The notes beneath the pieces were generated by a model. It searched no databases, was not told the origin of the DNA, and saw only the letters and a program-made list of their open reading frames with translations. From Bacteroidales bacterium (GTDB lineage: Bacteria; Bacteroidota; Bacteroidia; Bacteroidales; UBA12077): 64,000 nt of DNA. This document shows positions 27,528-54,867 of this stretch, one piece after another. The translations under genes were made by a program, and so were the position numbers. Location: positions 6,916 to 70,915 of the forward strand of contig JANQHR010000062.1 in assembly GCA_028282585.1 (NCBI GenBank), in the 5' to 3' direction. The first letter of the stretch is position 1. Each line of letters starts with the position of its first letter.

Positions 27528-27537
27528 AGTTTTTTAT

Positions 27538-32798: not shown

Positions 32799-32849
32799 AT
32801 CTCTAGTTTTTTTACTAGTTATAATTCTTAGTTTGTTGTTGTTAGGAGT

Positions 32850-33365: not shown

Positions 33366-33374
33366 AATTGTCTC

Positions 33375-39614: not shown

Positions 39615-39628
39615 TAAACTTGTTAAAT

Positions 39629-42214
39629 ATGAAAAAAATAAATCGATTATTTGTAATCTTTATTCTTTCTTCTATTGTATATAGTAGCTGTAAAGACATT
39701 AATCCAAAACTAATTGAACCAGGAGTATCTAAAGAATTAGCGACTCTAAGAGAAAAACAATTAAGTGATATAAAATACTTTTTGTCTTTTTCAGTTCCCG
39801 ATTCTGTAAACGAAAAGGTACAAGGACATAGCATTATTGAATTCAATTTTAATAAGGAATTAAACAAACCTCTTATTCTTGATTTTAGAAACCCGGAGAC
39901 TTTCGTAAAATCAGTTAAGATTGATAAAAAGGAAATTAATTATGAATTTAAAAACGAACATATTATTATAAATGCCAAATTACTTCAAAATGGGAAGAAC
40001 AAACTTGAAATTGAATTTGTAGCCGGTGATCGCGCATTAAATAGAAACACTGAATATTTATATACATTATTTGTACCTGACAGGGCCTGTACAGCTTTTC
40101 CAAGCTTTGACCAACCTTCTTTAAAAGCTAAGTTCCAAACTGAAATAAACGTTCCTGGAGAATGGATATCTGTAGCAAATTCTCCATTAATTGATAAAAA
40201 AGAAGAAAATAGTCGTTCTATCTATATTTTTGATGAAACAGAACCAATTTCAACTTATATCTTTTCGTTTGTTGCGGGAAAATTTCAATCTGTTTCTAAA
40301 ACCTACGATGAAAGAGAAATTATTATGTATCATCGCGAAGATGATTTGGATAAGGTAAAAAATAATACCAATAAGATCTTTGATTTACATTACGGCTCTC
40401 TAAAATGGCTTGAGGAATATACACAAATAGAATATCCGTTCACCAAATTTGATTTTGTAATTATACCTTCCTTCCAATATTCCGGCATGGAACATCCGGG
40501 TGCAATTCTTTATCGCGACTCCAGGTTATTTCTTGAAAAAAATGCTACAATAAGAGAAAAATTGAACAGAGCCAATTTAATTGCACATGAAACTGCCCAT
40601 ATGTGGTTTGGAGATTTAGTTACAATGGAATGGTTTAGTGAAGTTTGGTTAAAAGAAGTTTTTGCCAATTTTATGGCAGGCAAAATTGTAAATCCTCAAT
40701 ATCCAGAGGTAAACCATGATCTTAACTTTTTAATTAATCATTATCCTTCATCTTACTCTGTTGATAGAACAAAAGGAGCAAATCCAATTGAACAAGAATT
40801 GGATAATATGAAAAATGCAGGAACTTTATATGGAAGTATCATTTATCATAAAGCCCCAATTATAATGAATCAACTAGAAAAAATTATAGGGAATGATTTG
40901 TTAAAAGAAGGTATCCAGGAATACTTAATCCAAAATATGTATGGAAATGCAACCTGGGATGATTTAATTAATATATTAGATAACAAAACAGATAAAGATT
41001 TAAAAAGATGGAGTCACGCGTGGGTATATGAACCAAGAATGCCTCATTATAACGTTCAAAAAGCATATAATGTCAACAATAAGTTGGAGTCAATAATCAT
41101 TGAACAATTAGACCCTGCGGGTAAAGGCAGACAATGGAATCAGGAGATTAAAGTTTTATTGGCACATGAGAAAGGAACCCAAGAATTTCAGGTTGAATTA
41201 AAAGATACATTTTCTGTTGTTAATCTATTAAAAAAGGAGTTGATACCCGAATATGTTTTCCCAAATTCTGATGGTCTGGGATATGGTTATTTTGAAATTG
41301 ATAGTATTTCAATCATTGGTATTTTAAATCAATTATCAGAAATAAAAGATCCTGTATTACGATGTTCAATGTATATTTCTCTTTGGGAAAATATGTTAAA
41401 TGAAAATATCAATCCGAGCGATCTTTATAAAACATTTTTAGAAACTCTGGATTCTGAAAACAATGCGCAAAATATTAATCTTTTGCTCGGATATGTAAAA
41501 TCTATTTATTGGAAATTTACACCAAATAAACAAAGGGATTTATTAGCTAAAGATCTGGAATCCTTCCTTTGGGAAAAAGTTCTTAGAGCTGGTTCTGCGG
41601 GTTTAAAATCTTCTTTTTTCAATGCTTACAGATCAATCATTTTAACTGAAAATGGTATAAATAATCTTTACCATCTATGGAAAGATAAAATTGAAATTTC
41701 CAACCTGGAACTTACTGAAAAGGATTTTACAAAGATTTCATTCGAATTAGCGTTAAGAAATATTCCAAACACGGAATCAGTTCTTGATAAACAGTATGAA
41801 AGAATAAAAAACACTGAGAAAAAAGATCGGTTTAATTTTATGAGACAAGCTGTTTCAACTCAAGAAAAAGTTCGTGATAATTTCTTTGAAAAATTAAAAG
41901 ACGAAAAGAATAGGGAAAAAGAACCATGGGTTATTGATGCTCTTTATTATTTACATCACCCTTTACGCAGTGAGGGATCTGTAAAATATTTAAGACCTTC
42001 ATTAGATATTCTGGAAGAAATTCAGGTTACCGGCGATATCTTTTTTCCAAAAAGATGGCTAGATGCAAGTTTTGCTGGTCATAATTCAGTTGATGCAGTA
42101 ACAGAAGTTAATTTATTTTTAAATGAAAATCCAGGTTATCCTGACAATTTAAAGAATAAAATTCTTCAATCAACAGATTTAGTATTCAGAGCAAGCATTA
42201 TTAATAATGAATAG
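39629..42214 (+). CDS. M1-family zinc aminopeptidase (lipoprotein)
   Basis: Start moved to ATG 39629 (MKKINRLFVIFILSSIVYSSC). HEXXH-x18-E zinc site (HETAHMWFGDLVTMEWFSEVWLKE) and a GxMEN-like exopeptidase motif (YSGMEHPG). Confidence 0.9.
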   Translation: MKKINRLFVIFILSSIVYSSCKDINPKLIEPGVSKELATLREKQLSDIKYFLSFSVPDSVNEKVQGHSIIEFNFNKELNKPLILDFRNPETFVKSVKIDKKEINYEFKNEHIIINAKLLQNGKNKLEIEFVAGDRALNRNTEYLYTLFVPDRACTAFPSFDQPSLKAKFQTEINVPGEWISVANSPLIDKKEENSRSIYIFDETEPISTYIFSFVAGKFQSVSKTYDEREIIMYHREDDLDKVKNNTNKIFDLHYGSLKWLEEYTQIEYPFTKFDFVIIPSFQYSGMEHPGAILYRDSRLFLEKNATIREKLNRANLIAHETAHMWFGDLVTMEWFSEVWLKEVFANFMAGKIVNPQYPEVNHDLNFLINHYPSSYSVDRTKGANPIEQELDNMKNAGTLYGSIIYHKAPIIMNQLEKIIGNDLLKEGIQEYLIQNMYGNATWDDLINILDNKTDKDLKRWSHAWVYEPRMPHYNVQKAYNVNNKLESIIIEQLDPAGKGRQWNQEIKVLLAHEKGTQEFQVELKDTFSVVNLLKKELIPEYVFPNSDGLGYGYFEIDSISIIGILNQLSEIKDPVLRCSMYISLWENMLNENINPSDLYKTFLETLDSENNAQNINLLLGYVKSIYWKFTPNKQRDLLAKDLESFLWEKVLRAGSAGLKSSFFNAYRSIILTENGINNLYHLWKDKIEISNLELTEKDFTKISFELALRNIPNTESVLDKQYERIKNTEKKDRFNFMRQAVSTQEKVRDNFFEKLKDEKNREKEPWVIDALYYLHHPLRSEGSVKYLRPSLDILEEIQVTGDIFFPKRWLDASFAGHNSVDAVTEVNLFLNENPGYPDNLKNKILQSTDLVFRASIINNE

Positions 42215-42217: not shown

Positions 42218-42245
42218 AGCCGGATTTCTCCGGCTCTATTTTTCA
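42218..42245. terminator. Hairpin terminator between convergent genes
   Basis: AGCCGGA (42218-42224) pairs with TCCGGCT (42229-42235) around a TTTC loop, followed by a T-rich run. Overlaps the stop of the minus-strand gene. Confidence 0.6.
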
Positions 42246-42514
42246 TTTAAACTATTTAGCTCGTCAAGTAGTTTCATATTCATTTCATACATCTCCTCTA
42301 TAATATCTCTGTAATATTCTTTTTTACTCCCATTTTCCGGTGGGTTGTTAACTTTGTATAATAGATTTCTTCTCAACTGCTCTGCATCATGCATAATATC
42401 CAAAACATTTTCCTGATTGTTTACAGGAGAATATTCCATATACGAGAAACACTCAAGAATAACTTGATTTGCCAAGAAATTAATATCCTTTTTTAAATCT
42501 CGACTACTCGCCAT
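42236..42514 (-). CDS. Hypothetical small helical protein
   Basis: 92-aa ORF with no recognisable motif. Clean intergenic flanks. Confidence 0.5.
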   Translation of the reverse strand: MASSRDLKKDINFLANQVILECFSYMEYSPVNNQENVLDIMHDAEQLRRNLLYKVNNPPENGSKKEYYRDIIEEMYEMNMKLLDELNSLNEK

Positions 42515-42641
42515 TTCGATCTTAAATAATACAAAATTTAATAGAAAGATAGAAGTAAATATTTAAAAATCAAAATCGTTTATAAAAAAACACTCTGCCG
42601 TTTGAAGCAGAGTGTTAATAATATTCTCATATATTTTATTT

Positions 42642-44639
42642 CTATTCAATACTTTGCGAATATGAGGTCGTATAGTTTTTAAGCTCATCGATTCTAAAGA
42701 TGTTATACCCTTTATAGTACTTTATTATATCAACGTTTACATTCTCAAAACCAGAGTCTTTATACCATTTAACAAATCGATAATTAGCCTGCAATAAATC
42801 AATTTGATGATTGTAAATACAATGCTCAAAATTTTCTCCATAATTCAACATTGCTGAAAGAAAATAAAGCCCCACATCATAGGCATGAATTGCCATTTGG
42901 TTGGGTTCTGTATGGTAAGTATCTCTAAATTTCTTAATGAATCGCTTTACATCCTCATGATGGTAGTCAATAAAAAACGGAGAAGCTATACAAAGTTCAA
43001 GATTGAAATAATATTCCGGATCAATATTTCTAAAACGTTGCCAGCGTGATAATCCAATAACACGAACTTCTTTACCAAAAGCTCTTAATGTATTAAGTTT
43101 AGTTACAACATTTGTTACAAAAGCTTCTTCATTTGAAGGAACAACAAATACATTTTCAATTTCCTCGCTTAAAGCATGTTCTAATACATAAATACTATCT
43201 TCGAAAACAACCTCTTTAAACTGTATATTATTAATCAAAGTATCAATAGATAAGCTCGCAAAGATTTTATCTTTAACCATTTTCACATTACTATAACCCA
43301 AGCTATCACCGTTATGCACTAGTATGATGTTTTTGTCTCCGAAATCCGAAACAAAACGAGCAAATTCATTAATTTGTGATTCATATGATGGATATACCTG
43401 AAATAAATAAGGATTCTCATCAACCAGTTTCAAATTATCGCGTAAAGGTGAAACCATTTTAATCCCGTGTTGCTTTGAAAACTCTGAAACCAATTTAACT
43501 TCGTGATTATAAATCGGGCCGATTATTAAATCAGAATATTCTAATTCAGGAAAACTCAATATTTCTTTTATTCTTGCCGTATCATTTTGTGTATCATAAA
43601 CATGCAAGTTAATTGATAGCCCTCTTTGTTTTAAGCTATCGATAGCCATTAATAACCCTTCGTAAAACTCAACAAATGCTATTGATTTTGGATAAATATA
43701 AAATGGTTCATAAAAAACTTTTTCATAGATTTTTTTTCCGTATTCATCTACTTCCGAAGAATCAATAAAGAATTCCTCATCGTTCTTTTCTAAGTAAAAC
43801 GGCAGTAGCAATGATACATGATAAGGTTCACTTTTCGGTCTGAATATTTTCTGACATTCGGTAAAATTCATTGAATCAGAATAAGCAATGCTGGTACGTT
43901 TTTCATAGAAAATAGAATCAGTCACTTGTTCTTCCTGCCTTAATAAAACCGTTGTAGCTTCAAATCCTTCTTCGACAATTGGAATCTTTAAAACCTGCCC
44001 ATACTTTAATCCATCTTTTAAAAAAGGGTTATGTTCATTTAAAATCTCTTCCGTAATATTATATTCACGGGTAAGTGAAAATACTGTCTCTTTCTGTTCA
44101 ACTTTATGATAAATAAATTTACTAGGAATTCTTATAGTATCTTCTAATATATTATTTGATGGTGTTAAGTTTACAACATTCTTGTTTTCTCTCGTTTTTG
44201 GAATTCTTATAATTTGATTTACTTTAATTACGTATTCAATTGAAGGGTCATTAAATGCTATTATATCTTCCTTTGGTACATTATACATTTGTGAAAGTGA
44301 AAACAAAGTTTGGCCAGGTTGAACTCTATGATATAATACATATTTTTCTCCTCCTGATTTTTCCTCGGTTTGTTCTTTAACCACAGGAATTTTTAGCGCC
44401 TGTCCGGGTTGTAAACCTAAAAAGATTTCAGGATTTTCTTTTGCAACTTGTTTTTGACTAACATTATATGCTTTACAAAGTGAAAATAATGTTTCTCCCT
44501 GTTTTACAATGTGAACATAATAATGCTGTCCTCCAATTATTACTTTATTTTTTGAAATTTCAATTTTAGTCGAATCACTTTGTGCAAAAGCGTTAAAAGT
44601 GATCAGTAGTAAAACGAAAATATTACGAAGCCTTTTCAC
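42642..44639 (-). CDS. Secreted protein with three LysM domains and a periplasmic-binding-protein-like C-terminal domain
   Basis: 665 aa with a signal peptide. Three LysM repeats (HIVKQGETLFSLCKAYNVS, HRVQPGQTLFSLSQMYNVP, HKVEQKETVFSLTREYNIT), then a type-I PBP-like region. Confidence 0.8.
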   Translation of the reverse strand: MKRLRNIFVLLLITFNAFAQSDSTKIEISKNKVIIGGQHYYVHIVKQGETLFSLCKAYNVSQKQVAKENPEIFLGLQPGQALKIPVVKEQTEEKSGGEKYVLYHRVQPGQTLFSLSQMYNVPKEDIIAFNDPSIEYVIKVNQIIRIPKTRENKNVVNLTPSNNILEDTIRIPSKFIYHKVEQKETVFSLTREYNITEEILNEHNPFLKDGLKYGQVLKIPIVEEGFEATTVLLRQEEQVTDSIFYEKRTSIAYSDSMNFTECQKIFRPKSEPYHVSLLLPFYLEKNDEEFFIDSSEVDEYGKKIYEKVFYEPFYIYPKSIAFVEFYEGLLMAIDSLKQRGLSINLHVYDTQNDTARIKEILSFPELEYSDLIIGPIYNHEVKLVSEFSKQHGIKMVSPLRDNLKLVDENPYLFQVYPSYESQINEFARFVSDFGDKNIILVHNGDSLGYSNVKMVKDKIFASLSIDTLINNIQFKEVVFEDSIYVLEHALSEEIENVFVVPSNEEAFVTNVVTKLNTLRAFGKEVRVIGLSRWQRFRNIDPEYYFNLELCIASPFFIDYHHEDVKRFIKKFRDTYHTEPNQMAIHAYDVGLYFLSAMLNYGENFEHCIYNHQIDLLQANYRFVKWYKDSGFENVNVDIIKYYKGYNIFRIDELKNYTTSYSQSIE

Positions 44640-44726
44640 ACATTAATTATTTAGGTTTAAACTTTAACTTTTAGAGGATAATTTTATTGTTCAGTGACAA
44701 AATTAATTGAACTCTCGGAATAAAAA

Positions 44727-44756
44727 AATAAGCATGACAATTTTGTCATGCTTATT
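44727..44756 (-). terminator. Intrinsic terminator after the ferritin-like gene
   Basis: Near-perfect palindrome pairs AATAAGCATGACAA with TTGTCATGCTTATT, followed by a U run on the minus strand. Confidence 0.6.
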
Positions 44757-44775
44757 TTTATGTTTGGTTTAAAAT

Positions 44776-45231
44776 TTAATTTTCTCTTAAAACATACTCA
44801 TCATACTCTATTTCAAAACGTAATTTATGTTTTGACTCTTCCTGGGCCAAAACTATAAACACTTCCCTTATCTCCTCATTACTTGATGCTTTTGCCAGAT
44901 CATAATATAATTTAAAAGCCGCCTTTTCTTTACTCATAGCCACTACCAAGGCTTCTGAGTAAGTCATATCCGGCTTTACCGAAACCTCTGCTATATAATC
45001 ACTTATTTTTAAATCAGCAATTTGTTTTTGTTCTATTTTAAATGAACCTTCATTTTTAATTTTTGTTAAACGAGCTTTATGTTCAATTTCTTCTTGTGCA
45101 AAAGAAGTAAACACAATTCGCATATCTTCCGTTTTTGCATTTTTAGCTAACTCATTATAGAAATCTACAGCTTCTTGTTCTGCATTTATTGCAAAATCAA
45201 GGATATCGTTAATAGAGTTAAATTCTTTCAT
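44776..45231 (-). CDS. Ferritin-like / rubrerythrin-family diiron protein
   Basis: 151 aa four-helix-type protein with two E-x-x-H motifs (QEEIEHKARL and QEESKHKLRF) plus upstream Glu residues. Confidence 0.75.
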   Translation of the reverse strand: MKEFNSINDILDFAINAEQEAVDFYNELAKNAKTEDMRIVFTSFAQEEIEHKARLTKIKNEGSFKIEQKQIADLKISDYIAEVSVKPDMTYSEALVVAMSKEKAAFKLYYDLAKASSNEEIREVFIVLAQEESKHKLRFEIEYDEYVLREN

Positions 45232-45567
45232 CTTTTTTTGTATTTAGTTTTAATGTTAACAATATTTAATTCTTTTTGTTTTTGATAATTTTATTATGCA
45301 TTGCAAATCTTACACTTTTCTCCTTTTATTAGCTACTCGGCTGCTATAAGAACACTTTACTTTTAATGATATGAAATTATATATGGTTATCATTATATAA
45401 TTATTGAATGTTTCAAGTCTCTTATTTCTACAATACTTTGAGATTTTTAAAATATATAAATTATCAAATAAATGCTTATAATGCAAGCTTTTCAGATTAT
45501 TTATTGAAGTTTAATTCTAAATAAATGCATTATAAGATTAGAGCGTATTTTATCAGAGGATCGGAAA

Positions 45568-45599
45568 ATAAGGGATACAATATTTAATGTATCCCTTAT
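45568..45599 (-). terminator. Intrinsic terminator after the NuoE/F-like operon
   Basis: 11-bp stem pairs ATAAGGGATAC with GTATCCCTTAT around a 10-nt loop, followed by U4 on the minus strand. Confidence 0.55.
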
Positions 45600-45615
45600 A
45601 TATTGTAATTTATTA

Positions 45616-48600
45616 TTAATTAAAAGCTTCTTTAAAATTATCGTCAAAAACCTTTACTAAATTATCACAACCATGCTTAAATAACTTATTCAAGTTATCC
45701 TTTTCGGTATAAACAAACTCAAAACCTTCTGTTTTCTTAACATCAGATAGAATATCGAAGATTTCTTTTCTGATATCATCCACAGATTCCACCTTAGTTT
45801 CGATAAGTTGATTAAAAATTTGATGCAATTGTTGGTAATTCTCCATTTCAATCTTGCCATCAAACTGTTTTTCAAATACCTGAATATTTTTTTGAGTGTT
45901 TGTAAAACTTCCGGATGTTTCTACTGGGAAAGTAGCTGGAAGAATTAAATTAGCCTTTTGAGCCGTTTCAGTCATAAAGTAATCCTGAACCATTACAAAT
46001 TCCGCATCAGCAAACCATTTTTGCACTTTTTCTTTTTCAGTGGCACATCCAATAGGATCTTCGCCGAAAATGTAGAATTTCTTTAATAAACCTTCATTTA
46101 ATAACTCTTTCATACATTTATCTCCTTGCTCAGGTAAACCATCAACCTTCCAAGTTTTAGCAAGTTTTTTAGCATATTTGGTATCTGCTAAGTCAACATT
46201 GCCAACACCATTTTTAGATGAAACTCCCATGTCAAATAATCCTTGTGAGTTATTTTTTTCTTTCAATGAGATTAATCCATTAGCAATTTTACTTAATTTA
46301 CCAGTTATCATTGCCAAGTTAAATAGCTCACGGCTTACATTCGACGAAACTTCTTTTTCGGAAAATACCAATATAGCATTCATCTCATTGTTATATGATT
46401 TAGCAAAGCTTTCTAAAGTTTCTTTGCTAGTACCGGATTCTTTAACCAATTGGTCGTAATTTTCCGTAGCTAATTCCTTCTTGTATTCATCAAAACCAGC
46501 GCAATTATCTTTAATGAACATTGCATTTTGCAATCTATTTTCCACTAAATAGTAATTAATTGCCTTAACAAAATGATAGTAAGAATTAACCTTAATGGTT
46601 TTATCAACTTTATGTTCCAATGCACTTAATTCTCTATTAGTAATTAACTCTATAGGAGTATTTTCAATTTCACGCACATTATTGATCATAAAGCTTGCGA
46701 CCGGATTATCCATATTTACCTCTGATCCTAATATATAAATTCGCGAGGCATCTTTGATTTGCTCAAAAGGAACATTTGCTTCTGAATTTCCACTATACCA
46801 CCTTCCTTGCCCAACATAATGGAAACTTGAAATGTTATTGGTTTTAGCTCCTGCCCTTGCAAGTTTCTGAATCATATACATTTCTTCATTACTTAAACGA
46901 GCTCCAGCGAAAAAACCATTTTCACTAGAGTCAGCTCCTTTAATTTCATCTGCAATTACATCAAATGCCTTTTCCCAACTAATTACTTCAAATTTTCCAT
47001 CCACTTTTATTAATGGTTGAGTAATTCTGGAAGCATCGTTCATAACCGGATAACCAAATCGAGAATAACGGCAAATATTTCCATCTTTATTTATCTGCCC
47101 TTCATATCCATTTACATTCCATACAAATTCTGATTTGTGGTTATATTCAACTTCACAACCAATCGAGCAATAATGGCATAATGTATTTGCTTTGTCAAGC
47201 TCAACCGGTCCAGGTTTAAAGTTTACATTCTCGGTAATTGCTCCTGTTGGGCATGTTGAAATACATGAACCGCAAGATTCACAATCCGTTTCAACCAGTG
47301 AATTACCCATACTAGGTGCAATAAATGTATTAAATCCACGATTTACCAACCCCAAAGCATTAGCACCAACTACCTCCTTACAGATTCTAACACATCGGGC
47401 ACAAAGTATACATTTATTGTTATCTATTTCAACATAAGGATGAGAAAAATCTAATTCGTGAGCATGATAATCACCAGCAAAATTCTTTTGCTCAGCTTCA
47501 TATTGAGTTGCATATTTTTTTAAGTCACAAGTAAAAAATTCTGTACATCCACATTCCAGGCAACGCTCAGCTTCGTGTTGTGCAACATTTTCAGCATAAC
47601 CCAGTTCAACTTCATTAAAATTAATTCTTTCGTCAGCTGGAAGCACAGGCATTTCCTCACGCAATTGCTTTTGATACCTTCCCAAAAAATCTTCTGTCTT
47701 TAGTTCTTTATAACTATCCTTTTTACTAATAAACTCTTTTGGTTCCGGTGTTAATTCTTCGCCCATTAAAAATTGATGGCAACTGCGGCTTGCAGTTTTA
47801 GCCTGTTCAATTGCTTCAATAATTGTTGCTGGACCTGTAACACCATCACCTGCAGCAAACATAGACTTTATTCCTGTTTGTAATGTGTTTTTATCCGCAT
47901 CTATATCACCCCAACGATTAACCTCTAACTTTCCTTCGGTAGCTGATTCATTAATATCATCTAAGAAATTAACCACTGTTTTCTGTCCAATAGCAGCTAA
48001 AATATAATCCAGTTCAATATCAAAATCAGAACCTTCAACCGGTACAGGGCGTCGTCGCCCTGAAGCATCAGGTTCACCCAGCTCCATTTTTAAGCATGTC
48101 ATTGATTTTACTTTACCATCTTTGTCCTTATTAACTTTTGATGGATTAGTCAAGAATAAATATTCTACACCCTCAACTTTCGATTCGTGAATCTCAATTG
48201 GATTTGCGGGCATTTCTTTTTCTGTCCGACGATAAATGACATAAACCTTTTCTGCTCCACATCTCAATGAAGTGCGACAGCAATCCATTGCTGTATTACC
48301 ACCTCCAACTACGGCAATCGTTTTTCCTTTAAAGTTGTATTTTTGGCCTGTCATTTCCATATTTCTTAGGAAATCAATACCTGAAAATACATTCTCTGCA
48401 TCATCACCTTCGCAGCCAATTAATGTTCCTCGCTGTGAACCAATAGTTAAGATTACAGAATCATAATCACTTTTTAATTCTTTATAACTTAAGTTATCAC
48501 CTAATTTTTTGTTGTAAAAGATATTTGTACCTAATTCAGTTACAGCAGCCACTTCCTGATCTAATATATCATTTGGTAAACGATACTCAGGAATACCATA

Positions 48601-49308
48601 ACGTAACCAACCTCCAGGATTTGGGCTTGCTTCAAAAATATCACATTGGTGACCTTTTTGTTGTAGAAAGTATGCTGATGATAACCCACCAGGTCCGGCA
48701 CCAATGATTGCTACTTTTTTTCCAGTTGATTTCGCTACTTCAGGAACAAATCTTGTTTCTGATAATAAATCTTGGTCAGCTGCAAAACGCTTCATATAAT
48801 CAATACCTACCGCAGCCCCCTCATCTAAATGATTACGTCGACAAGCTACCTCACAAGGACGTACACAAACACGACCACAAATTGCCGGTAACGGATTTGT
48901 CTCTTTAATTAACGCAACTGCTTCGTTATATAAGCCTTTTTCTATTAATGCAATATAGCCTTGTACATCAACACCCGCCGGGCAAGTTTGCTTACACGGA
49001 GCCTCACAATCGGCATAATGGTTACTTACTAATAAATCTAAAGCTGTTTTTCGAGCTTTTTTAACTTTTTCGTTTTCAGTCTCAATCTTCATCCCTTCCT
49101 GGATCTTAGTGGAACAAGAAGGTTGCATGCCTCGCATACCATCTACTTCAACAACACAAACAAAACAGGATGAGAATGGCTTCAATCGATTATCATAGCA
49201 TAATGTTGGAATTTCAATTCCATTTCTTTTGGCTAGCTGAAGAATCGTTTCTCCTGGCTTTCCTTTTATATTTTTTCCGTTAAGAATTATATTTAGTTGA
49301 TTGCTCAT
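45616..49308 (-). CDS. 1230-aa fusion oxidoreductase: 2Fe-2S ferredoxin + GltD/NfnB-like NADPH-FAD module + NuoG/FdhA-type FeS clusters + degenerate molybdopterin-oxidoreductase-fold domain (StnC-like)
   Basis: N-terminal 2Fe-2S region (LCYD...SSCFVCVVEV). GltD-type cluster motifs (CEAPCKQTCPAG, GRVCVRPCEVAC), FAD site (IIGAGPGGL) and NADPH site (VVGGGNTAMDC). FeS motifs CLECGC, CILCARCVRIC, CESCGSCISTCP and CHYCSIGCE. MopB-like motifs RITQPLIKVDGKFEVISWEKAFD. No [FeFe]-hydrogenase H-cluster motifs. Confidence 0.85.
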   Translation of the reverse strand: MSNQLNIILNGKNIKGKPGETILQLAKRNGIEIPTLCYDNRLKPFSSCFVCVVEVDGMRGMQPSCSTKIQEGMKIETENEKVKKARKTALDLLVSNHYADCEAPCKQTCPAGVDVQGYIALIEKGLYNEAVALIKETNPLPAICGRVCVRPCEVACRRNHLDEGAAVGIDYMKRFAADQDLLSETRFVPEVAKSTGKKVAIIGAGPGGLSSAYFLQQKGHQCDIFEASPNPGGWLRYGIPEYRLPNDILDQEVAAVTELGTNIFYNKKLGDNLSYKELKSDYDSVILTIGSQRGTLIGCEGDDAENVFSGIDFLRNMEMTGQKYNFKGKTIAVVGGGNTAMDCCRTSLRCGAEKVYVIYRRTEKEMPANPIEIHESKVEGVEYLFLTNPSKVNKDKDGKVKSMTCLKMELGEPDASGRRRPVPVEGSDFDIELDYILAAIGQKTVVNFLDDINESATEGKLEVNRWGDIDADKNTLQTGIKSMFAAGDGVTGPATIIEAIEQAKTASRSCHQFLMGEELTPEPKEFISKKDSYKELKTEDFLGRYQKQLREEMPVLPADERINFNEVELGYAENVAQHEAERCLECGCTEFFTCDLKKYATQYEAEQKNFAGDYHAHELDFSHPYVEIDNNKCILCARCVRICKEVVGANALGLVNRGFNTFIAPSMGNSLVETDCESCGSCISTCPTGAITENVNFKPGPVELDKANTLCHYCSIGCEVEYNHKSEFVWNVNGYEGQINKDGNICRYSRFGYPVMNDASRITQPLIKVDGKFEVISWEKAFDVIADEIKGADSSENGFFAGARLSNEEMYMIQKLARAGAKTNNISSFHYVGQGRWYSGNSEANVPFEQIKDASRIYILGSEVNMDNPVASFMINNVREIENTPIELITNRELSALEHKVDKTIKVNSYYHFVKAINYYLVENRLQNAMFIKDNCAGFDEYKKELATENYDQLVKESGTSKETLESFAKSYNNEMNAILVFSEKEVSSNVSRELFNLAMITGKLSKIANGLISLKEKNNSQGLFDMGVSSKNGVGNVDLADTKYAKKLAKTWKVDGLPEQGDKCMKELLNEGLLKKFYIFGEDPIGCATEKEKVQKWFADAEFVMVQDYFMTETAQKANLILPATFPVETSGSFTNTQKNIQVFEKQFDGKIEMENYQQLHQIFNQLIETKVESVDDIRKEIFDILSDVKKTEGFEFVYTEKDNLNKLFKHGCDNLVKVFDDNFKEAFN

Positions 49309-49352
49309 TTTCTTTTTAATTTAATTAATGATCTAATTACCAGGCAGCTTGA

Positions 49353-51131
49353 TTATGATAATAAAACAGCATCAAACTTGCACTTACTATAACACATACC
49401 GCACTGTATACAGTCCTCTTGTCTGATTTCATGCAATTCTTTTCTTTCACCATCAATTGCGTTGGTTGGACAATTTTTAGCACATACAGTACATCCGGTA
49501 CAATTTTCAGGGCTAATGGTATATGTAAGTAGTTTCTTACAATGCTTGGCAGGGCATTTTTTATCATTAATATGAGCTTCGTACTCAGGCCTGAAATATT
49601 TAATAGCAGTAAGCACAGGATTTGGAGCAGTTTGCCCTAAACCACAAAGTGAGCTATCCTTAATTTGATAAGCTAATTCTTCTAACTTCTCAATATCTCC
49701 ATCTTGTCCTTCACCTACAGTAATTTTTTCAAGAATTTCAAGCATTCGTTTTGTACCAACACGACAGAAAGTACATTTTCCGCATGATTCTTTTACGGTA
49801 AAATCAAGGAAAAATCTTGCAATATCAACCATACAGGTTGTTTCATCCATTACCACCATACCACCAGATCCCATAATTGCTCCGGTAGCTGTAACAGAAT
49901 CATAGTCTACTTCAGTATCTGCCAGATACTCGGGAATACAGCCACCAGATGGTCCCCCCAACTGTACTGCTTTAAATTTTTTATCATCAATAATTCCACC
50001 ACCTAATTTAAAAATAATATCACGAATAGAAACTCCCATTGGAACCTCAACTGAACCACCATGTTTAATCTTGCCTGTTAAAGCAAATACTTTTGTTCCT
50101 TTACTTTTTTCAGATCCGTATTTAGAATAGGATTCCGGACCATTTAAAAATATATATGGAACATTTGCATAAGTTTCAACATTATTATTGTTAGTTGGCT
50201 TAGCCCACAATCCTGCTTCTGCCGGAAATGGTGGGCGTTTGCGAGGCATACCCCTTTCTCCTTCAATAGATGCAATTAGCGCAGTTTCTTCACCGCACAC
50301 AAAAGCTCCTGCTCCTTCTTTTACAAATAAATCAAAATCAAAGCCTTTCACTCCCATTACATCTTTACCAAGAAAACCTTTTTCCCTTGCCTGCTCAATG
50401 GCAATATTTAACCGCTTAATTGCCAATGGGTATTCAGCACGGCAATAAATCACTCCTTCGCTTGCTCCAATTGCATAACCAGCAATTGCTAAACCTTCGA
50501 GAACCGCATGAGGGTCACCTTCAAGTAACGAACGGTCCATAAAAGCACCGGGATCGCCTTCATCTGCATTACAAATAACGTATTTTTGTTCTGATTTATA
50601 ATTGAATGCGAATCTCCATTTAAGCCCCGTTGGGAAGCCTCCGCCTCCTCTACCACGAATTCCTGAGTCTAAAACAGTTTGAATAACCTGTTCCTGGCTA
50701 ATTTTTTCTTTTAAAATTTTCTCCAAAGCCTTATAACCGCCCTGTTCTTGGTACTCATCAATATTTTCAGGGTCAATTATTCCGCAATTTCGTAAGGCAA
50801 TTTTCACCTGTCCTTCCCAAAATGCATCATCCTGGGTTTCAATAAAATCACTTTTAACAATATAATCTTTAACAGGTTCACCTTGTTTTAAGTGCTTATC
50901 GAAAATTGACACGGCTTTTTCTTCATCAATTTCTCCGTATAAATATGAACCTGTATCATCAATTATTTCTACTAATGGTTCACGGTAACACATTCCGATA
51001 CAACCTGTTTTTTTTATTTCTATATCAAGTTTATCAGCACCTTGTAATGCCAATAATTTGTTAAATACTTTGTTAGCACCTGCTGCTATTCCACAACTTG
51101 CTAGTCCGACTAAAACTTTTGTTTTTTCCAT
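49353..51131 (-). CDS. NuoF/HydB-like NADH-binding FMN/FeS subunit with an extra N-terminal 2Fe-2S-type domain and a C-terminal 2x[4Fe-4S] ferredoxin domain
   Basis: 592 aa. GRGGGGFPTGLKW (FMN), CNADEGDPGAFMDR (NADH), ESCGKCTFCRVG (N3-type cluster), and a C-terminal CTGCTVCAKNCP ... CIQCGMCYSKC. Confidence 0.9.
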   Translation of the reverse strand: MEKTKVLVGLASCGIAAGANKVFNKLLALQGADKLDIEIKKTGCIGMCYREPLVEIIDDTGSYLYGEIDEEKAVSIFDKHLKQGEPVKDYIVKSDFIETQDDAFWEGQVKIALRNCGIIDPENIDEYQEQGGYKALEKILKEKISQEQVIQTVLDSGIRGRGGGGFPTGLKWRFAFNYKSEQKYVICNADEGDPGAFMDRSLLEGDPHAVLEGLAIAGYAIGASEGVIYCRAEYPLAIKRLNIAIEQAREKGFLGKDVMGVKGFDFDLFVKEGAGAFVCGEETALIASIEGERGMPRKRPPFPAEAGLWAKPTNNNNVETYANVPYIFLNGPESYSKYGSEKSKGTKVFALTGKIKHGGSVEVPMGVSIRDIIFKLGGGIIDDKKFKAVQLGGPSGGCIPEYLADTEVDYDSVTATGAIMGSGGMVVMDETTCMVDIARFFLDFTVKESCGKCTFCRVGTKRMLEILEKITVGEGQDGDIEKLEELAYQIKDSSLCGLGQTAPNPVLTAIKYFRPEYEAHINDKKCPAKHCKKLLTYTISPENCTGCTVCAKNCPTNAIDGERKELHEIRQEDCIQCGMCYSKCKFDAVLLS

Positions 51132-51162
51132 TTTATAAATTTTAGGATTCGAGTGGAAATAA

Positions 51163-51681
51163 TTAATTACTTTCGCTAATCTTGATTTCCTTTACAATTT
51201 TTACAGCTTGTTTTCCGGAAAGTTTTCCGTAAGTCTCATCACCAATCATCATAACCGGAGCAAGAGAACAACAACCGAGACAAGCAACAGACTCCAGTGT
51301 AAAAAGACCATCTTCAGTAGTTTCACCATCCTTGATACTTAAAGCGTCTTCCAAGGCTTCAGAAACAGCAGTAGCGTTTTGCACATGGCAAGCAGTACCA
51401 TGGCAAACTTTAACAATATGTTTTCCAACCGGATTTAATCTGAATTGAGTATAAAACGTGGCAACTCCATACATTTCACTGAGTTTTAAACCTGTTAATT
51501 CAGAAATTTTAATAAAAGTTTCAGCAGGCAGGTATCCGTAAATATCCTGTGTTCCTTGTAAAATTGGAATCAGACTACCTTTTTTACTTTTGTATTTTTC
51601 AATTAGCGGATCAATTAATGATAGATCCACCGAAGCCTGATTAGCAACTTCTTTTTCTTGTAGTATTCGTTTAACACGCAT
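51163..51681 (-). CDS. NuoE/HydC-like thioredoxin-fold [2Fe-2S] subunit
   Basis: 172 aa with cluster ligands CHGTAC ... CLGCC in the canonical spacing pattern. Confidence 0.9.
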   Translation of the reverse strand: MRVKRILQEKEVANQASVDLSLIDPLIEKYKSKKGSLIPILQGTQDIYGYLPAETFIKISELTGLKLSEMYGVATFYTQFRLNPVGKHIVKVCHGTACHVQNATAVSEALEDALSIKDGETTEDGLFTLESVACLGCCSLAPVMMIGDETYGKLSGKQAVKIVKEIKISESN

Positions 51682-52120: not shown

Positions 52121-53227
52121 CTATAAATTTAATAAGCTATTTGCATACCTTAGCAACCGAATCATATCAAAGAATTTTCCTAATTTCCATTGCATAGCGG
52201 CTAAGATTCCATGCACTGCAAGTAGTTCTGTTTCAATCAATTTTTCTTCTTGAATTATAAGATTATATATCCCGTTTTTAGCGGTTTTGTAACCTTCATT
52301 TTCATAATTCATAAGAATATCGATGGTATTCTCCTCAGCTGTAATTTCTCTTTTTACAGGTTCATACCCAAGTTTTTTAATCATAGCTTCAGCTAAAGCC
52401 CAAGTCGACCATGGGTTTTGTCCTGTTAACAAATTACCATCTTCACAAATATTTTTGAGATACTGATGACCTCGTTTGAAATAGGCTCCTTTGGCTATTA
52501 ACTCATCTTCTAAAAGAAAGGGGAAAATATTTTCTGCATCGGGTATTAAGAATAACTCTTCTTCATTTGTAAAGGAACAAACTTCTTTACCGGCTAAAAG
52601 AAAGCTCCCATCTTTAAGTGTTACATTAACTAATGCTGCCGGCCCATGACAAACCGCGCCAATTATTTTCCCTGATTCGTAATATTCCTGAACTATAGAC
52701 TGAATTCTGGCATTGTTTGGAAAATCAAACATAGTACCCTTTCCTCCTGCGAAATAAATGGCATCATATTCTTTACTATCCACTTTTTCAATTGGAATTG
52801 TATTTAGTACCTTTTGTTGAGCGATTGAATCATTCAGGAAGGCGTAATCATAGATTCCCATGTCTTCAGAATCTATAATTACTGGTGGATTCCCTCCTTT
52901 TATACTCGCTATATCAACTTCAAATCCATTAGTCATAAATACATAATAAGCACGGGATAATTCTGTTAACTCATATCCTGTTTTTTTACCACTACTTCCC
53001 ATAATCTCACAACTGGTAACTACAGCAAGAATTTTACCTCTTTTTTCAGGTTTATCCTGGGATATGTATGGGACATCCTTTGGTTGTATTTTAGTAATAT
53101 CAACATTCAGATCTTCGGATGGAAGCAAACTCATAAACCATAATCCGAAAGAAACCAATATAATAATCAGACTCAAAAAAATGGTAAGACTCCATTTCAG
53201 GATTGGATACTTTTTAAATTTTAACAT
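52121..53227 (-). CDS. Membrane-anchored DJ-1/PfpI (class I glutamine-amidotransferase-like) family protein
   Basis: 368 aa. N-terminal TM helix and a nucleophile-elbow motif (IGAVCHGPAAL). Confidence 0.75.
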   Translation of the reverse strand: MLKFKKYPILKWSLTIFLSLIIILVSFGLWFMSLLPSEDLNVDITKIQPKDVPYISQDKPEKRGKILAVVTSCEIMGSSGKKTGYELTELSRAYYVFMTNGFEVDIASIKGGNPPVIIDSEDMGIYDYAFLNDSIAQQKVLNTIPIEKVDSKEYDAIYFAGGKGTMFDFPNNARIQSIVQEYYESGKIIGAVCHGPAALVNVTLKDGSFLLAGKEVCSFTNEEELFLIPDAENIFPFLLEDELIAKGAYFKRGHQYLKNICEDGNLLTGQNPWSTWALAEAMIKKLGYEPVKREITAEENTIDILMNYENEGYKTAKNGIYNLIIQEEKLIETELLAVHGILAAMQWKLGKFFDMIRLLRYANSLLNL

Positions 53228-53319
53228 AACTTTTAGTTTTTGATTTTTAAATTCTTTTCAAATCAACTACTTATATTTGTCAAAATCTTTCGAAATGATC
53301 ATTTTAACATACTAAATGG

Positions 53320-54354
53320 TCATTTAATCATCTTTTCTCTGTATGCTTTTGGAGTATTTTGAGTATAATGTTTAAAGGCCGCATTGAAACTAGATATGCT
53401 ATTGAATCCAACTTCGAATGAAATAGATGCAATAGTGTGGTCTTTATATTTTTCATCCTGAAACATTCTAATGGTTTCTTCAACACGAAATTTATTGATG
53501 TAACCATTAAAATTCATTTTAGTTTTTGTATTTATAACCATCGATAAAGTCTGAGAAGTAACATTTAACAATTTACTGAGTGATTTCAGCGTTAAGTTTC
53601 CGTTCTTGAATTGTTCCTCATCAACAATAATTCTTTTGACACTTGCAAATAATTGATCAATTTGTTCTTGCGTGGCCGATGTTGTTTTGTATTTAACAGT
53701 TTCAAGGTATCCCTTTTTTATAACAATTATACTAATTACGTATGCAAGAATAGTATATAGAATAGGACCGACAATATAGGGAACTACGTCATCAAACAGG
53801 TTCAATACATAAACGAGCCATATTGCCAATAATGAGTACCATAATATTCGCATAATAGCAACAGAATTTGGATTTAGCTCCAATTTTCTTTTGTTTGAAA
53901 TAAGCCTGTAACAAACTAATAAATAAAACAAATAATGACAGTAATAGAAGGTAAATAGAAATACAAAAAATGACCTTGGTAATGTTTCATAAATATCTTC
54001 ATTTATCCACAATCCAAATAGTATTCCCAAAAATGAAGCAGTAAAGTGGATTAAATGAATTGTTTTAAGTTTAAATTTTGGATTTTCCAGTGATTTGATA
54101 TAAAAATAAAATAAGGGTCCGATGGCTAATAAAGTTGCCAATCCTATAAAAATGATTCGAACCTCTAGGTTTTCTGTAAACTCCAATATAACCGATTTAC
54201 CTACACGAAAAGAAAAAATTATTAATAATAAGCTCAATAATTTGTTGGAAGTAGTATTGTATTTTGATTCAATATTTAGGAAAAGAGCCAGAAACACTCC
54301 ATGGAGCACTCCCATTCCGCTAATAAGTATTAAAAATATATTGAATGCTGTCAT
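53320..54354 (-). CDS. AraC-family transcriptional regulator with an N-terminal multi-TM domain
   Basis: 344 aa. About 6-7 hydrophobic helices, then an AraC-type double HTH (LSKLLNVTSQTLSMVIN ... IASISFEVGFNSISSFNAAFKHYT). Confidence 0.85.
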   Translation of the reverse strand: MTAFNIFLILISGMGVLHGVFLALFLNIESKYNTTSNKLLSLLLIIFSFRVGKSVILEFTENLEVRIIFIGLATLLAIGPLFYFYIKSLENPKFKLKTIHLIHFTASFLGILFGLWINEDIYETLPRSFFVFLFTFYYCHYLFYLLVCYRLISNKRKLELNPNSVAIMRILWYSLLAIWLVYVLNLFDDVVPYIVGPILYTILAYVISIIVIKKGYLETVKYKTTSATQEQIDQLFASVKRIIVDEEQFKNGNLTLKSLSKLLNVTSQTLSMVINTKTKMNFNGYINKFRVEETIRMFQDEKYKDHTIASISFEVGFNSISSFNAAFKHYTQNTPKAYREKMIK

Positions 54355-54798: not shown

Positions 54799-54867
54799 AA
54801 ACTCATTTTCGATTCATATCAATTTGATATTTTTATAGGATTTTTGAGTAATGGGATTTATAATTTT

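What the first reader, a model, noticed from the sequence alone, without database searches (positions are those of the whole stretch)
45616..51681. Stn/Bfu-like three-subunit flavin-FeS complex whose large subunit fuses a GltD-type NADPH module to a degenerate formate-dehydrogenase-like domain
Seen in sequence: an operon of three genes. The first is a NuoE/HydC-like 2Fe-2S protein. The second is a NuoF/HydB-like subunit with FMN and NADH motifs, an extra N-terminal cluster domain and a C-terminal 2x[4Fe-4S] ferredoxin domain. The third is a 1230-aa protein with 2Fe-2S ferredoxin, GltD/NfnB-like FeS, FAD and NADPH motifs, NuoG/FdhA-type clusters, and a molybdopterin-oxidoreductase-fold domain. 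By-eye alignment around KLAR..TNN[VI] gives SSFHYVGQG where formate dehydrogenases have the Sec/Cys-His pair, and no H-cluster motifs are present. Established knowledge: NuoE/NuoF-like pairs with this domain set form the bifurcating core of HydABC-type hydrogenases, NAD-dependent FDHs and the Sporomusa-type Nfn (StnABC), in which a GltD-like module provides the NADP(H) site. Inference: this is probably an NADH/ferredoxin:NADP+ electron-bifurcating transhydrogenase. The additional C-terminal MopB-like domain with no obvious Mo ligand is an architecture I do not recognise as characterised. The neighbouring ferritin-like diiron protein fits an anaerobic redox context.
Basis: partly seen in the sequence, partly recalled or inferred. 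Interest (0 to 1): 0.55.

Follow-up and report, generated by a model that had tools for sequence, protein, structure and literature searches.

The report
Known Stn/Nfn-Bfu transhydrogenase operon, Bacteroidales
These three genes encode a Bacteroidales version of an already characterised enzyme (StnABC / NfnABC) that very probably uses NADH and reduced ferredoxin together to make NADPH, and the "odd" dead formate-dehydrogenase-like tail is a normal, already solved feature of the bacterial members of that family.

Summary
Three co-directional minus-strand genes (51681-51163, 51131-49353, 49308-45616) encode NuoE-like, NuoF-like and 1230-aa GltD+NuoG/Fdh-like proteins.

The functional guess (electron-bifurcating NADH/ferredoxin:NADP+ transhydrogenase) is well supported by homology. 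All three proteins align end to end with the cryo-EM-solved S. ovata StnABC (8OH5) and C. saccharolyticus NfnABC (9BOV). All on-pathway cluster ligands, the family-specific Lys ligand (K173), R243 and the NADPH motif are invariant in 79/79 relatives.

The novelty claim is wrong. The C-terminal Mo-less Fdh-like domain is a described part of StnC/NfnA: catalytically inactive, no pterin density, needed for tetramer assembly. Nfn-type Bfu enzymes were already noted in Bacteroidetes.

Here the Sec/Cys segment is deleted, the catalytic Arg is Lys, and MopB domain IV is absent.

Two modest new points. A 151-aa rubrerythrin-like di-iron gene follows the operon in 56/73 evaluable Bacteroidota/Ignavibacteria loci. 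The most distal dead-end [4Fe-4S] site is lost in 23/79 sequences.

Verdict: new member of a known kind, low interest.

The parts
51163..51681 (-). stnA / nfnC-like gene (172 aa): NuoE/HydC-type thioredoxin-like [2Fe-2S] subunit
   Evidence: Pfam 2Fe-2S_thioredx, E 5.7e-51. Best PDB hits are 9bov_C (1.7e-57) and 8oh5_A (1e-52). C93/C98/C134/C138 are conserved in 69/69 relatives.
49353..51131 (-). stnB / nfnB-like gene (592 aa): NuoF-type FMN/NADH subunit with an N-terminal thioredoxin-like domain (3Cys+Glu B5 site) and a C-terminal 2x[4Fe-4S] ferredoxin domain (predicted bifurcating core, with the small subunit)
   Evidence: Pfam Complex1_51K, NADH_4Fe-4S and Fer4. Aligns 5-591 with 8oh5_B residues 2-583, E 4e-265. 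The B5 site C13/C44/C48/E51 is the same as in all three solved Nfn-Bfu enzymes. All cluster Cys are conserved in 68-69 of 69 relatives.
45616..49308 (-). stnC / nfnA-like gene (1230 aa): large subunit, with the NADP(H)/FAD GltD module inserted into a NuoG-like FeS protein and a vestigial Fdh-like C-terminal domain
   Evidence: Pfam domains. Aligns 7-1035 and 1067-1192 with 9bov_A (E 7e-235) and 4-875 with 8oh5_C (E 1e-224). It is 49% identical to Csac NfnA over residues 6-671.
47614..49023 (-). GltD/NfnL-like module (aa 96-565): two [4Fe-4S] sites, FAD (GAGPGG at 203), NADPH (GGGNTA at 335, YRR at 359-361), Lys ligand K173, R243
   Evidence: K173 corresponds to StnC K170 and R243 to StnC R239. 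Both, and the motifs, are invariant in 79/79.
45619..47208 (-). Fdh-like (MopB domains I-III) C-terminal domain (aa 701-1230), with no Mo ligand and no domain IV; carries the distal [4Fe-4S] site C711/C714/C718/C746
   Evidence: HMMER against FDHs. AlphaFold model pLDDT is mostly above 85 over aa 702-1230. Foldseek TMq is 0.66-0.70 to FDHs, 0.66 to 9bov_A and 0.63 to 8oh5_C. This domain is less conserved than the rest: mean identity 0.58 versus 0.77.
46804..46842 (-). Vestigial Mo-ligand site (aa 823-835, TNNISSFHYVGQG): the Sec/Cys-containing segment of FDHs is deleted
   Evidence: alignments. 77/79 relatives have no Cys in this 13-residue stretch; S828-F829-H830 is conserved in 74-78 of 79.
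46240..46266 (-). LKEKNNSQG motif (aa 1015-1023), aligned with the FDH 'LRGQNNVQG' motif; the Arg position is Lys1016
   Evidence: K in 78/79 relatives.
45568..45599 (-). Hairpin (12-bp stem as folded, 8-nt loop; perfect 10-bp core AAGGGATACA/TGTATCCCTT) followed by AUUUUCC, directly after the large-subunit stop codon; possible intrinsic terminator or attenuator
   Evidence: Sequence; RNAfold -16.8 kcal/mol. The consensus scan did not call it, because the T-run is only 4.
44776..45231 (-). 151-aa rubrerythrin/ferritin-like di-iron protein (erythrin-type, no rubredoxin domain); conserved downstream neighbour and possible fourth gene of the locus
   Evidence: Pfam Rubrerythrin, 4.2e-15. E18, E47/E48-x2-H51, E102 and E131/E132-x2-H135 are conserved in at least 90% of 55 homologues. 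It lies downstream on the same strand in 56/73 evaluable loci. The nearest PDB entry is TM1526 (1vjx), function unknown.
44724..44759 (-). 16-bp palindromic hairpin followed by a T-run after the rubrerythrin-like gene: likely terminator of the unit
   Evidence: RNAfold -19.3 kcal/mol.

Best explanation
The locus encodes a Bacteroidales orthologue of the Stn / Nfn-Bfu (BfuABC Type 1, Nfn-type) electron-bifurcating transhydrogenase. By analogy with the solved enzymes, NADP(H) binds at the FAD of the GltD-like module of the 1230-aa subunit. Single electrons travel through a chain of clusters in that subunit to the FMN of the NuoF-like subunit. These are the two GltD-module [4Fe-4S] clusters (the first with a Lys ligand, K173), the clusters formed by the HxxxCxxxCxxxCP and CxxCxCx5C insertion motifs, and the N-terminal [2Fe-2S]. 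There, FMN with its adjacent [4Fe-4S] and the [2Fe-2S] of the NuoE-like subunit form the bifurcation site. This site couples NAD+/NADH with ferredoxin, which docks at the C-terminal 2x[4Fe-4S] domain. In a fermentative anaerobe the likely physiological direction is NADH + reduced ferredoxin -> NADPH. The Fdh-like C-terminal domain is a non-catalytic remnant: it has no Mo ligand, Lys replaces the catalytic Arg, and it has no domain IV. Its role is structural (oligomerisation or stability). Shown here: gene structure, domain content, end-to-end homology, residue conservation, loss of FDH catalytic features. Inferred: activity, direction, oligomeric state.
For: ORFs and gaps are, and Pfam/NCBIfam domains. 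The best PDB relatives of all three proteins are the same two complexes, 9bov A/B/C and 8oh5 C/B/A, followed by 9n5u, T. sibiricus NfnABC. The co-linear alignment shows K173=K170, R243=R239 and identical motif spacing. All on-pathway ligands, K173, R243, GGGNTA and YRR are invariant in 79/79. B- and A-subunit ligands are conserved in 68-69 of 69. The 3Cys+Glu B5 site matches the Nfn-type enzymes and differs from the hydrogenase HydB chains. The NuoE-like and NuoF-like genes lie directly upstream wherever the contig allows, in 80 related loci. FDH catalytic features are lost and the fold is retained. The literature defines the family and its inactive Fdh-like domain.
Against: No biochemical data exist for any Bacteroidota member. 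The Fdh-like domain scores higher against genuine FDHs (155-177 bits over about 450 aa) than against the same domain of 8oh5_C or 9bov_A (108-124 bits, partial). Several pterin-pocket motifs (GARLSNEE, LKEKNNSQG, FGEDP, VQDYFMTETA...LILPA) are nearly invariant. A residual ligand-binding role in that domain is therefore not excluded. StnC C114 is Val here, but also Val in T. sibiricus NfnA.
Confidence: 0.88

Rival explanations
1. Four-component variant. The conserved rubrerythrin-like di-iron protein is a functional partner of the Nfn-Bfu complex, making a hybrid of Nfn-Bfu and the predicted 'Rub-Bfu'. It would drain electrons from the complex to H2O2 or O2, either to protect the enzyme or as an extra acceptor.
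For: The gene is downstream on the same strand in 56/73 evaluable loci, mostly with 18-100 nt gaps. It persists down to 54% large-subunit identity, in Ignavibacteria, and in 28 loci where the other flanking synteny (LysM gene) is gone. Three of four Rbr-like homologues sampled independently have Nfn-Bfu genes upstream. Di-iron ligands are conserved. The ferritin-like protein matches the ferritin part of NCBIfam PRK12775, a GltD+ferritin fusion family, at E 2.7e-4. Schut et al. predicted rubrerythrin-coupled Bfu enzymes.
Against: In this window the gene is separated by 384 nt and a -16.8 kcal/mol hairpin. One clade of about 15 loci lacks the gene. One homologue sits beside glutamate dehydrogenase with no Nfn-Bfu nearby. 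No fusion appears among the best 120 homologues, which are nearly all exactly 151 aa. The association with the distal cluster is lineage-confounded, and the SGED clade keeps the gene without the cluster. Co-location of oxidative-stress genes with O2-sensitive enzymes is common and need not mean physical coupling.
Confidence: 0.15
2. The large subunit is a functional NADP-linked formate (or other Mo/W-pterin substrate) dehydrogenase of the Fdh-Bfu type.
For: The Pfam Molybdopterin domain scores 101 bits. NCBIfam Fdh-alpha gives E 2.6e-82, below its cutoff. FDHs are the best PDB hits for the C-terminal 530 aa and the top Foldseek hits. Many databases name homologues 'formate dehydrogenase major subunit'.
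Against: The Sec/Cys-bearing segment is deleted, and there is no in-frame TGA because the ORF is uninterrupted. The catalytic Arg position is Lys in 78/79. There is no Molydop_binding domain IV, and the alignments end near FdhH residue 480 of 715. The domain evolves faster than the rest. Homologous solved structures have no pterin, and Stn has no FDH activity.
Confidence: 0.02
3. A non-bifurcating NAD(P)H-linked oxidoreductase, for example an NADPH:ferredoxin, NADPH:Fe(III) (SfrAB-like) or NAD(P)H:sulfur (the old 'Nso' assignment) reductase, that merely shares the modules.
For: Isolated StnC alone oxidises NADPH with artificial acceptors. The related Thermococcus enzyme was first named as a sulfur oxidoreductase, and SfrAB shares the GltD and NuoG/Fdh-like modules.
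Against: All cofactor sites of the BfuBC core that the solved enzymes use for bifurcation are present and invariant: FMN, B1, the NuoE-like [2Fe-2S], and the C-terminal B3/B4 domain. All three characterised homologues with this exact subunit set bifurcate.
Confidence: 0.07

Closest known systems
Caldicellulosiruptor saccharolyticus NfnABC (Nfn-Bfu; PDB 9BOV/9BP5; PMC11829005)
   Same: Same three subunits, with best PDB scores for the large and small subunits (E 7e-235, 1.7e-57). 49% identity over large-subunit residues 6-671. Same Lys-ligated cluster, same 3Cys+Glu B5 site, and an Fdh-like domain without a pterin site.
   Different: The window protein is about 52 aa longer. Its Fdh-like domain is only about 25% identical and keeps more FDH-like motifs, for example His830 where Csac has Asp. 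Different phylum. A rubrerythrin-like gene lies downstream here; I could not examine the Csac neighbourhood.
Sporomusa ovata StnABC (PDB 8OH5/8OH9; PMC7483475, PMC10482914)
   Same: Same gene order (NuoE-like, NuoF-like, large). StnB is the best hit for the NuoF-like subunit (E 4e-265). K170/R239 equivalents are conserved. The FdhF-like domain is catalytically inactive, and its C1/C2 clusters are off-pathway but needed for assembly.
   Different: StnC C114 is Val115 here. The S. ovata operon sits next to metVF in an acetogen, whereas this one is in a Bacteroidales genome with no Wood-Ljungdahl context visible in the window.
Thermococcus sibiricus NfnABC (PDB 9N5U/9N5V; PMC12018979)
   Same: Same core, Lys ligand and Zn-type B5 motif.
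   Different: The archaeal large subunit is about 200-270 aa shorter (955-963 aa), lacks the A4 cluster ligands and is monomeric. The window protein is of the long bacterial type.
Predicted Rub-Bfu (Type 4 Bfu; Schut et al. 2022, PMC9304861)
   Same: A rubrerythrin-family gene directly downstream of Bfu genes, with the idea that Bfu electrons may reach a di-iron peroxidase.
   Different: Rub-Bfu lacks BfuA and the rubrerythrin follows BfuB (BfuB clade 57). Here a complete Nfn-type BfuA is present and the di-iron protein follows it. Rub-Bfu itself is uncharacterised.
Mo/W formate dehydrogenases (E. coli FdhH 1AA6, F420-FDH 9T1S, HDCR FdhF 7QV7)
   Same: The MopB fold of domains I-III and the N-terminal [4Fe-4S] motif; 155-177 bits, TMq about 0.66.
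   Different: No Sec/Cys ligand, Arg replaced by Lys, no domain IV.

Membership tests
Stn / Nfn-Bfu (BfuABC Type 1, Nfn-type) transhydrogenase | Co-directional three-gene cluster: NuoE-like, NuoF-like and a large GltD+NuoG-like subunit | tested here: met
   The same arrangement is found in 80 related loci wherever the contig allows.
Stn / Nfn-Bfu (BfuABC Type 1, Nfn-type) transhydrogenase | BfuB-type subunit: NuoF core (FMN/NADH motifs, B1 [4Fe-4S]), N-terminal thioredoxin-like domain, and C-terminal 2x[4Fe-4S] domain | tested here: met
   Pfam. Full-length alignment to 8oh5_B and 9bov_B. GRGGGGF at 160 and GAGAFVCGE at 273. Cys ligands are conserved in 68-69 of 69. The B5 site is C13/C44/C48/E51.
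Stn / Nfn-Bfu (BfuABC Type 1, Nfn-type) transhydrogenase | BfuC/StnA subunit with a thioredoxin-like [2Fe-2S] centre (four Cys) | tested here: met
   C93/C98/C134/C138 are conserved in 69/69.
Stn / Nfn-Bfu (BfuABC Type 1, Nfn-type) transhydrogenase | Large subunit with the GltD/NfnL module (FAD plus NADPH-type GxGxxA) inserted between the N-terminal [2Fe-2S] domain and the NuoG-type clusters, flanked by the HxxxCxxxCxxxCP and Cys-rich (CxxCxC...C) insertion motifs | tested here: met
   Pfam order. Co-linear with StnC and NfnA. H97/C101/C105/C109-P110 and C583/C586/C588/C594 have the same spacing as S. ovata and are invariant in 79/79. GGGNTA and YRR are invariant in 79/79.
Stn / Nfn-Bfu (BfuABC Type 1, Nfn-type) transhydrogenase | Lys ligand of the [4Fe-4S] cluster next to FAD (StnC K170 / Tsi NfnA K165), reported as strictly conserved in the family | tested here: met
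   K173 aligns with K170 and is invariant in 79/79.
Stn / Nfn-Bfu (BfuABC Type 1, Nfn-type) transhydrogenase | Conserved Arg near FAD (StnC R239) | tested here: met
   R243 is in IPEYRL, aligned with IPQYRL, and is invariant in 79/79. Its distance from flavin N5 is not testable here.
Stn / Nfn-Bfu (BfuABC Type 1, Nfn-type) transhydrogenase | Bacterial long form: C-terminal Fdh/NuoG-like domain without a Mo-pterin site | tested here: met
   Described for StnC and Csac NfnA.
Stn / Nfn-Bfu (BfuABC Type 1, Nfn-type) transhydrogenase | Tightly coupled NADPH:NAD+/ferredoxin (reversible) activity; tetramer of heterotrimers | not testable with these tools
   Needs anaerobic purification, enzyme assays and mass photometry or cryo-EM.
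Mo/W-bis-MGD formate dehydrogenase | Sec or Cys metal ligand followed by His (FdhH U140-H141) | tested here: not met
   The segment is deleted. An SFH motif remains without Cys. 77/79 relatives have no Cys there.
Mo/W-bis-MGD formate dehydrogenase | Catalytic Arg in the LRGQNNVQG motif (FdhH R333; residue number from general knowledge) | tested here: not met
   Lys1016, in 78/79 relatives.
Mo/W-bis-MGD formate dehydrogenase | C-terminal MGD-capping domain IV (Pfam Molydop_binding) | tested here: not met
   No hit at E<=0.01. Alignments to FdhH end at about residue 480 of 715.
[FeFe]-hydrogenase HydABC | H-cluster domain in the large subunit | tested here: not met
   No Fe-hydrogenase large-subunit domain among the Pfam hits. 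Only the N-terminal 100 aa align to HydA.
Rub-Bfu (predicted Type 4 Bfu) | BfuA absent; rubrerythrin directly downstream of BfuB | tested here: not met
   A complete Nfn-type BfuA lies between BfuB and the rubrerythrin-like gene.

The most novel reading that the evidence does not exclude
In Bacteroidota and Ignavibacteriota the Nfn-Bfu transhydrogenase may be a four-component system. The conserved 151-aa erythrin-like di-iron protein would dock on the complex and use its electrons to reduce H2O2 or O2. A possible docking site is the comparatively well-preserved Fdh-like domain with its 'dead-end' cluster branch. This would give the supposedly vestigial branch a function and provide a natural Nfn/Rub-Bfu hybrid.
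Probability: 0.12. Interest if true: 0.55.

Novelty: new member of a known kind. Interest (0 to 1): 0.22.

Why it matters
As it stands, the finding mainly corrects annotation. Thousands of Bacteroidales proteins named 'formate dehydrogenase major subunit' or 'molybdopterin-dependent oxidoreductase' are very probably the NADP(H)-binding subunit of a bifurcating transhydrogenase. This matters for metabolic models of anaerobic Bacteroidota, specifically for how NADPH is supplied from NADH and ferredoxin. If the rubrerythrin-like neighbour proved to be a real partner, it would give the first function to the 'remnant' branch of these enzymes and link electron bifurcation to oxidative-stress defence. 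The present evidence for that is only conserved gene order.

Tried and rejected
- **Source contig:** an exact-sequence lookup of the large subunit (from the window and as P0001) found nothing on record. The organism was instead inferred from the closest species genomes: Bacteroidales MAGs, at most 86% identity.
- **Fold search:** the AlphaFold model compared with the PDB does not separate 'FDH' from 'Nfn-Bfu Fdh-like domain'. Both give TMq 0.63-0.70 at 22-26% identity, so the decision rests on sequence features.
- **Distal cluster as the route to the fourth gene:** I tested whether the distal [4Fe-4S] site and the rubrerythrin-like gene are coupled. The raw 2x2 table is 46/5/9/12 with Fisher p = 5e-5. 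On a rough NJ tree built from the N-terminal 700 aa this reduces to about 6 and 4 changes. The SGED clade keeps the gene without the cluster, and four CCCC sequences inside the Rbr-less clade keep the cluster without the gene. I rejected this as evidence of coupling.
- **Divergent copies:** I looked for divergent rubrerythrin-like ORFs in the 17 loci lacking the gene and found none.
- **Structured RNAs:** the Rfam gathering scan of the whole window found nothing. The consensus promoter/terminator scan was at background level and missed the post-stnC hairpin.
- **Fusions:** I searched for fused forms of the rubrerythrin-like protein and found none in the best 120 hits.
- **Hydrogenase and glutamate synthase readings:** both rejected. 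There is no H-cluster domain, and the GltD matches fall below the equivalog cutoffs. No GltB-like large-subunit gene was noticed among the ORFs listed around the operon.

Full report
**Observation.** The three ORFs are real and lie exactly where stated, all on the minus strand:
- 51681-51163 (172 aa)
- 51131-49353 (592 aa)
- 49308-45616 (1230 aa)

The intergenic gaps are 31 and 44 nt.
- The 172-aa protein is 2Fe-2S_thioredx.
- The 592-aa protein has Complex1_51K, NADH_4Fe-4S and a C-terminal di-cluster ferredoxin domain.
- The 1230-aa protein has Fer2_4, Fer4_20, Pyr_redox_2, Fer4_Nqo3, Molybdop_Fe4S4 (just at threshold) and Molybdopterin.

There is no H-cluster domain and no Molydop_binding domain IV. 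NCBIfam equivalogs for GltD, NuoG and Fdh-alpha all match strongly but stay below their cutoffs, as expected for a mosaic protein.

**What it is.** Each of the three proteins has the same best relatives among solved structures:
- C. saccharolyticus NfnABC (9BOV/9BP5): E 7e-235, 7e-255 and 2e-57 for the large, NuoF-like and NuoE-like subunits.
- S. ovata StnABC (8OH5/8OH9): E 1e-224, 4e-265 and 1e-52.
- The archaeal T. sibiricus NfnABC (9N5U) comes next.

The solved large subunits are 1178 and 1172 aa, and they align co-linearly with the 1230-aa protein. Identity to Csac NfnA is 49% over residues 6-671 and about 25% in the C-terminal domain.

- StnC is "assembled from the fusion of" GltD and NuoG domains. 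Its residues 683-1172 are FdhF-like but "catalytically inactive". Its two distal clusters are off the electron path yet are needed for tetramer assembly (PMC10482914).
- In Csac NfnA "the corresponding pterin binding site is incomplete" and there is no pterin density (PMC11829005).
- Purified Stn does not oxidise formate (PMC7483475).
- Schut et al. 2022 already list Nfn-type Bfu enzymes in Bacteroidetes (PMC9304861).

**Membership tests.** I checked the family's defining residues rather than relying on overall similarity. The comparison set was 79 sequences: the window plus 78 loci from species-representative genomes, mostly Bacteroidales MAGs with some Ignavibacteria, at 54-86% identity.

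In the large subunit:
- K173 aligns with StnC K170, the unusual Lys ligand of the cluster next to FAD, which is reported as strictly conserved.
- R243 aligns with R239.
- K173, R243, every on-pathway Cys/His ligand, the GGGNTA NADPH motif and the YRR motif are invariant in 79/79.

In the NuoF-like subunit:
- The FMN/NADH glycine motifs are present.
- The B1, B3 and B4 cluster Cys are conserved in 68-69 of 69.
- The N-terminal thioredoxin-like domain has the 3Cys+Glu site (C13, C44, C48, E51) shared by all three solved Nfn-Bfu enzymes. The hydrogenase HydB chains differ at that position. That site holds Zn in Csac and T. sibiricus, and was modelled as [2Fe-2S] in S. ovata.

In the NuoE-like subunit, the four Cys are invariant. 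The NuoE-like and NuoF-like genes lie directly upstream of the large gene in every related locus where the contig reaches far enough.

**The Fdh-like domain.**
- Opposite the FDH segment 'NNVDHCARL[U/C]HSATVVGLG' the protein reads 'NNIS-------SFHYVGQG', so the piece carrying the Sec/Cys ligand is deleted.
- Opposite 'LRGQNNVQG' it reads 'LKEKNNSQG', so the catalytic Arg position is Lys.
- Alignments to FdhH stop near residue 480 of 715, so domain IV is missing.
- Across 79 relatives, 77 have no Cys in the vestigial site and 78 have Lys at the Arg position.

An AlphaFold model made with 36 sequences is confident over residues 702-1230. It superposes about equally on real FDHs (TMq 0.66-0.70) and on 9bov_A and 8oh5_C (0.66 and 0.63). 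The fold survives and the chemistry does not.

The domain evolves faster than the rest. Mean identity to the window is 0.58, against 0.76-0.77 for the other parts. Only 11% of its columns are at least 95% conserved, against 35-41% elsewhere. This fits a structural role.

Two caveats apply. This domain scores higher against catalytic FDHs (155-177 bits) than against the equivalent domains of the solved Stn/Nfn enzymes (108-124 bits, partial). Several former pterin-pocket motifs are also nearly invariant. I cannot exclude a residual ligand-binding role.

**New observations beyond the finding.**

1. *A conserved fourth gene.* The 151-aa rubrerythrin/ferritin-like gene (44776-45231) is not just 'redox context'.
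   - It lies directly downstream on the same strand in 56 of 73 evaluable loci, mostly with 18-100 nt gaps.
   - 28 of those loci have lost the other flanking synteny, and some are Ignavibacteria.
   - Sampling from the other side, three of four rubrerythrin-like homologues have Nfn-Bfu genes upstream. One lies next to a glutamate dehydrogenase gene instead.
   - Its E / ExxH / E / ExxH di-iron ligands are conserved.
   - Its nearest solved relatives are structural-genomics proteins of unknown function.
   - Schut et al. predicted a BfuA-less 'Rub-Bfu'. The arrangement here, a full Nfn-BfuABC plus an erythrin-like gene, is different, and I did not find it described in the papers I read.
   - In this window the gene is set apart by 384 nt and a -16.8 kcal/mol hairpin that follows the large-subunit stop codon. 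A strong hairpin follows the gene itself. Here it may be transcribed on its own.

2. *Loss of the distal cluster.* The four Cys of the most distal, off-pathway [4Fe-4S] site (C711/C714/C718/C746) are present in the window but lost in 23 of 79 sequences, in at least two sequence types (DG[FY]S-like and SGED).
   - Raw co-occurrence with the rubrerythrin-like gene looks significant (p = 5e-5).
   - It reduces to a handful of events on a tree, and the SGED clade keeps the gene without the cluster.
   - This is therefore not evidence that the cluster feeds the di-iron protein.

**Mechanism.** This is inferred from the solved homologues.
- NADPH reduces FAD in the GltD module.
- Electrons pass one at a time through the Lys-ligated cluster and the following clusters to the N-terminal [2Fe-2S], and on to the FMN of the NuoF-like subunit.
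- FMN, its adjacent [4Fe-4S] and the NuoE-like [2Fe-2S] bifurcate.
- NAD+ takes the high-potential pair. Ferredoxin takes the low-potential electrons at the C-terminal di-cluster domain.
- In a fermenting Bacteroidales cell the reaction probably runs in reverse, to make NADPH.

**Verdict.** The locus is a clear new member of a known, structurally solved enzyme family, and interest is low. The only mildly novel lead is the conserved erythrin-like neighbour.

Noticed in passing
window 22608-35438 (minus strand): A complete chemosensory gene cluster: a PAS/GAF protein, CheB, CheD, an HATPase_c protein, CheR, two Cache-domain MCPs, CheW and CheA. As far as I know this is uncommon for Bacteroidales. 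A CheA gene in a similar relative position is seen in relative L083.
   Followed up: no
window 52121-54354 (minus strand): A 368-aa DJ-1/PfpI-family protein and a 344-aa ORF that I took from its sequence to be an AraC-type regulator (not run against Pfam) lie between the operon and the divergent SNF2-family helicase gene (54844-57813). Neither is found in any of the 80 related loci. In close relatives (L081, L083) the SNF2 gene directly abuts the NuoE-like gene. This looks like a lineage-specific two-gene insertion.
   Followed up: partly
window 45232-45615: The spacer between the large-subunit gene and the rubrerythrin-like gene is 384 nt, AT-rich, and begins with a 12-bp-stem hairpin (10-bp perfect core). 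Most relatives have an 18-100 nt gap, two have about 3.8 kb inserted (L003, L030), and a few have 150-770 nt.
   Followed up: partly
L032, L033, L036, L040, L042, L043, L047, L053, L059, L060, L063, L064, L066-L070, L072-L076, L078 (large-subunit positions equivalent to window aa 711/714/718/746): All four Cys of the distal Molybdop_Fe4S4-type cluster are replaced (DG[FY]S-like, SGED or SSEG) in 23 of 79 sequences. In S. ovata, mutating these ligands abolished tetramer formation, so these natural variants may have a different oligomeric state.
   Followed up: partly
window 36147-37961 (minus strand): A 604-aa ORF with no Pfam match at E<=1e-5. A 602-aa gene with only a faint hit sits among response-regulator and STAS genes upstream of CheA in relative L083. 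I did not compare the two.
   Followed up: no
L014 (JBKHIH010000004.1, labelled Thiohalospira sp.) and P0171/L088 (GCA_023155875.1, labelled Comamonadaceae): Bacteroidales-type operons, at 79% and about 70% identity to the window proteins, occur in MAGs labelled as Proteobacteria, which suggests binning contamination. In L088 the operon is broken into many short ORFs, which suggests a frameshift-rich assembly.
   Followed up: no
window 42236-44639 and 39620-42214: The LysM/periplasmic-binding-domain gene, the 92-aa gene and the M1 peptidase gene downstream of the rubrerythrin-like gene are syntenic in the closer relatives: 28 and 21 of 80 loci for the first two, and L081 for all three. Gene order in this region is therefore generally stable among close relatives. 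That weakens the weight of those close relatives as evidence for operon linkage.
   Followed up: yes
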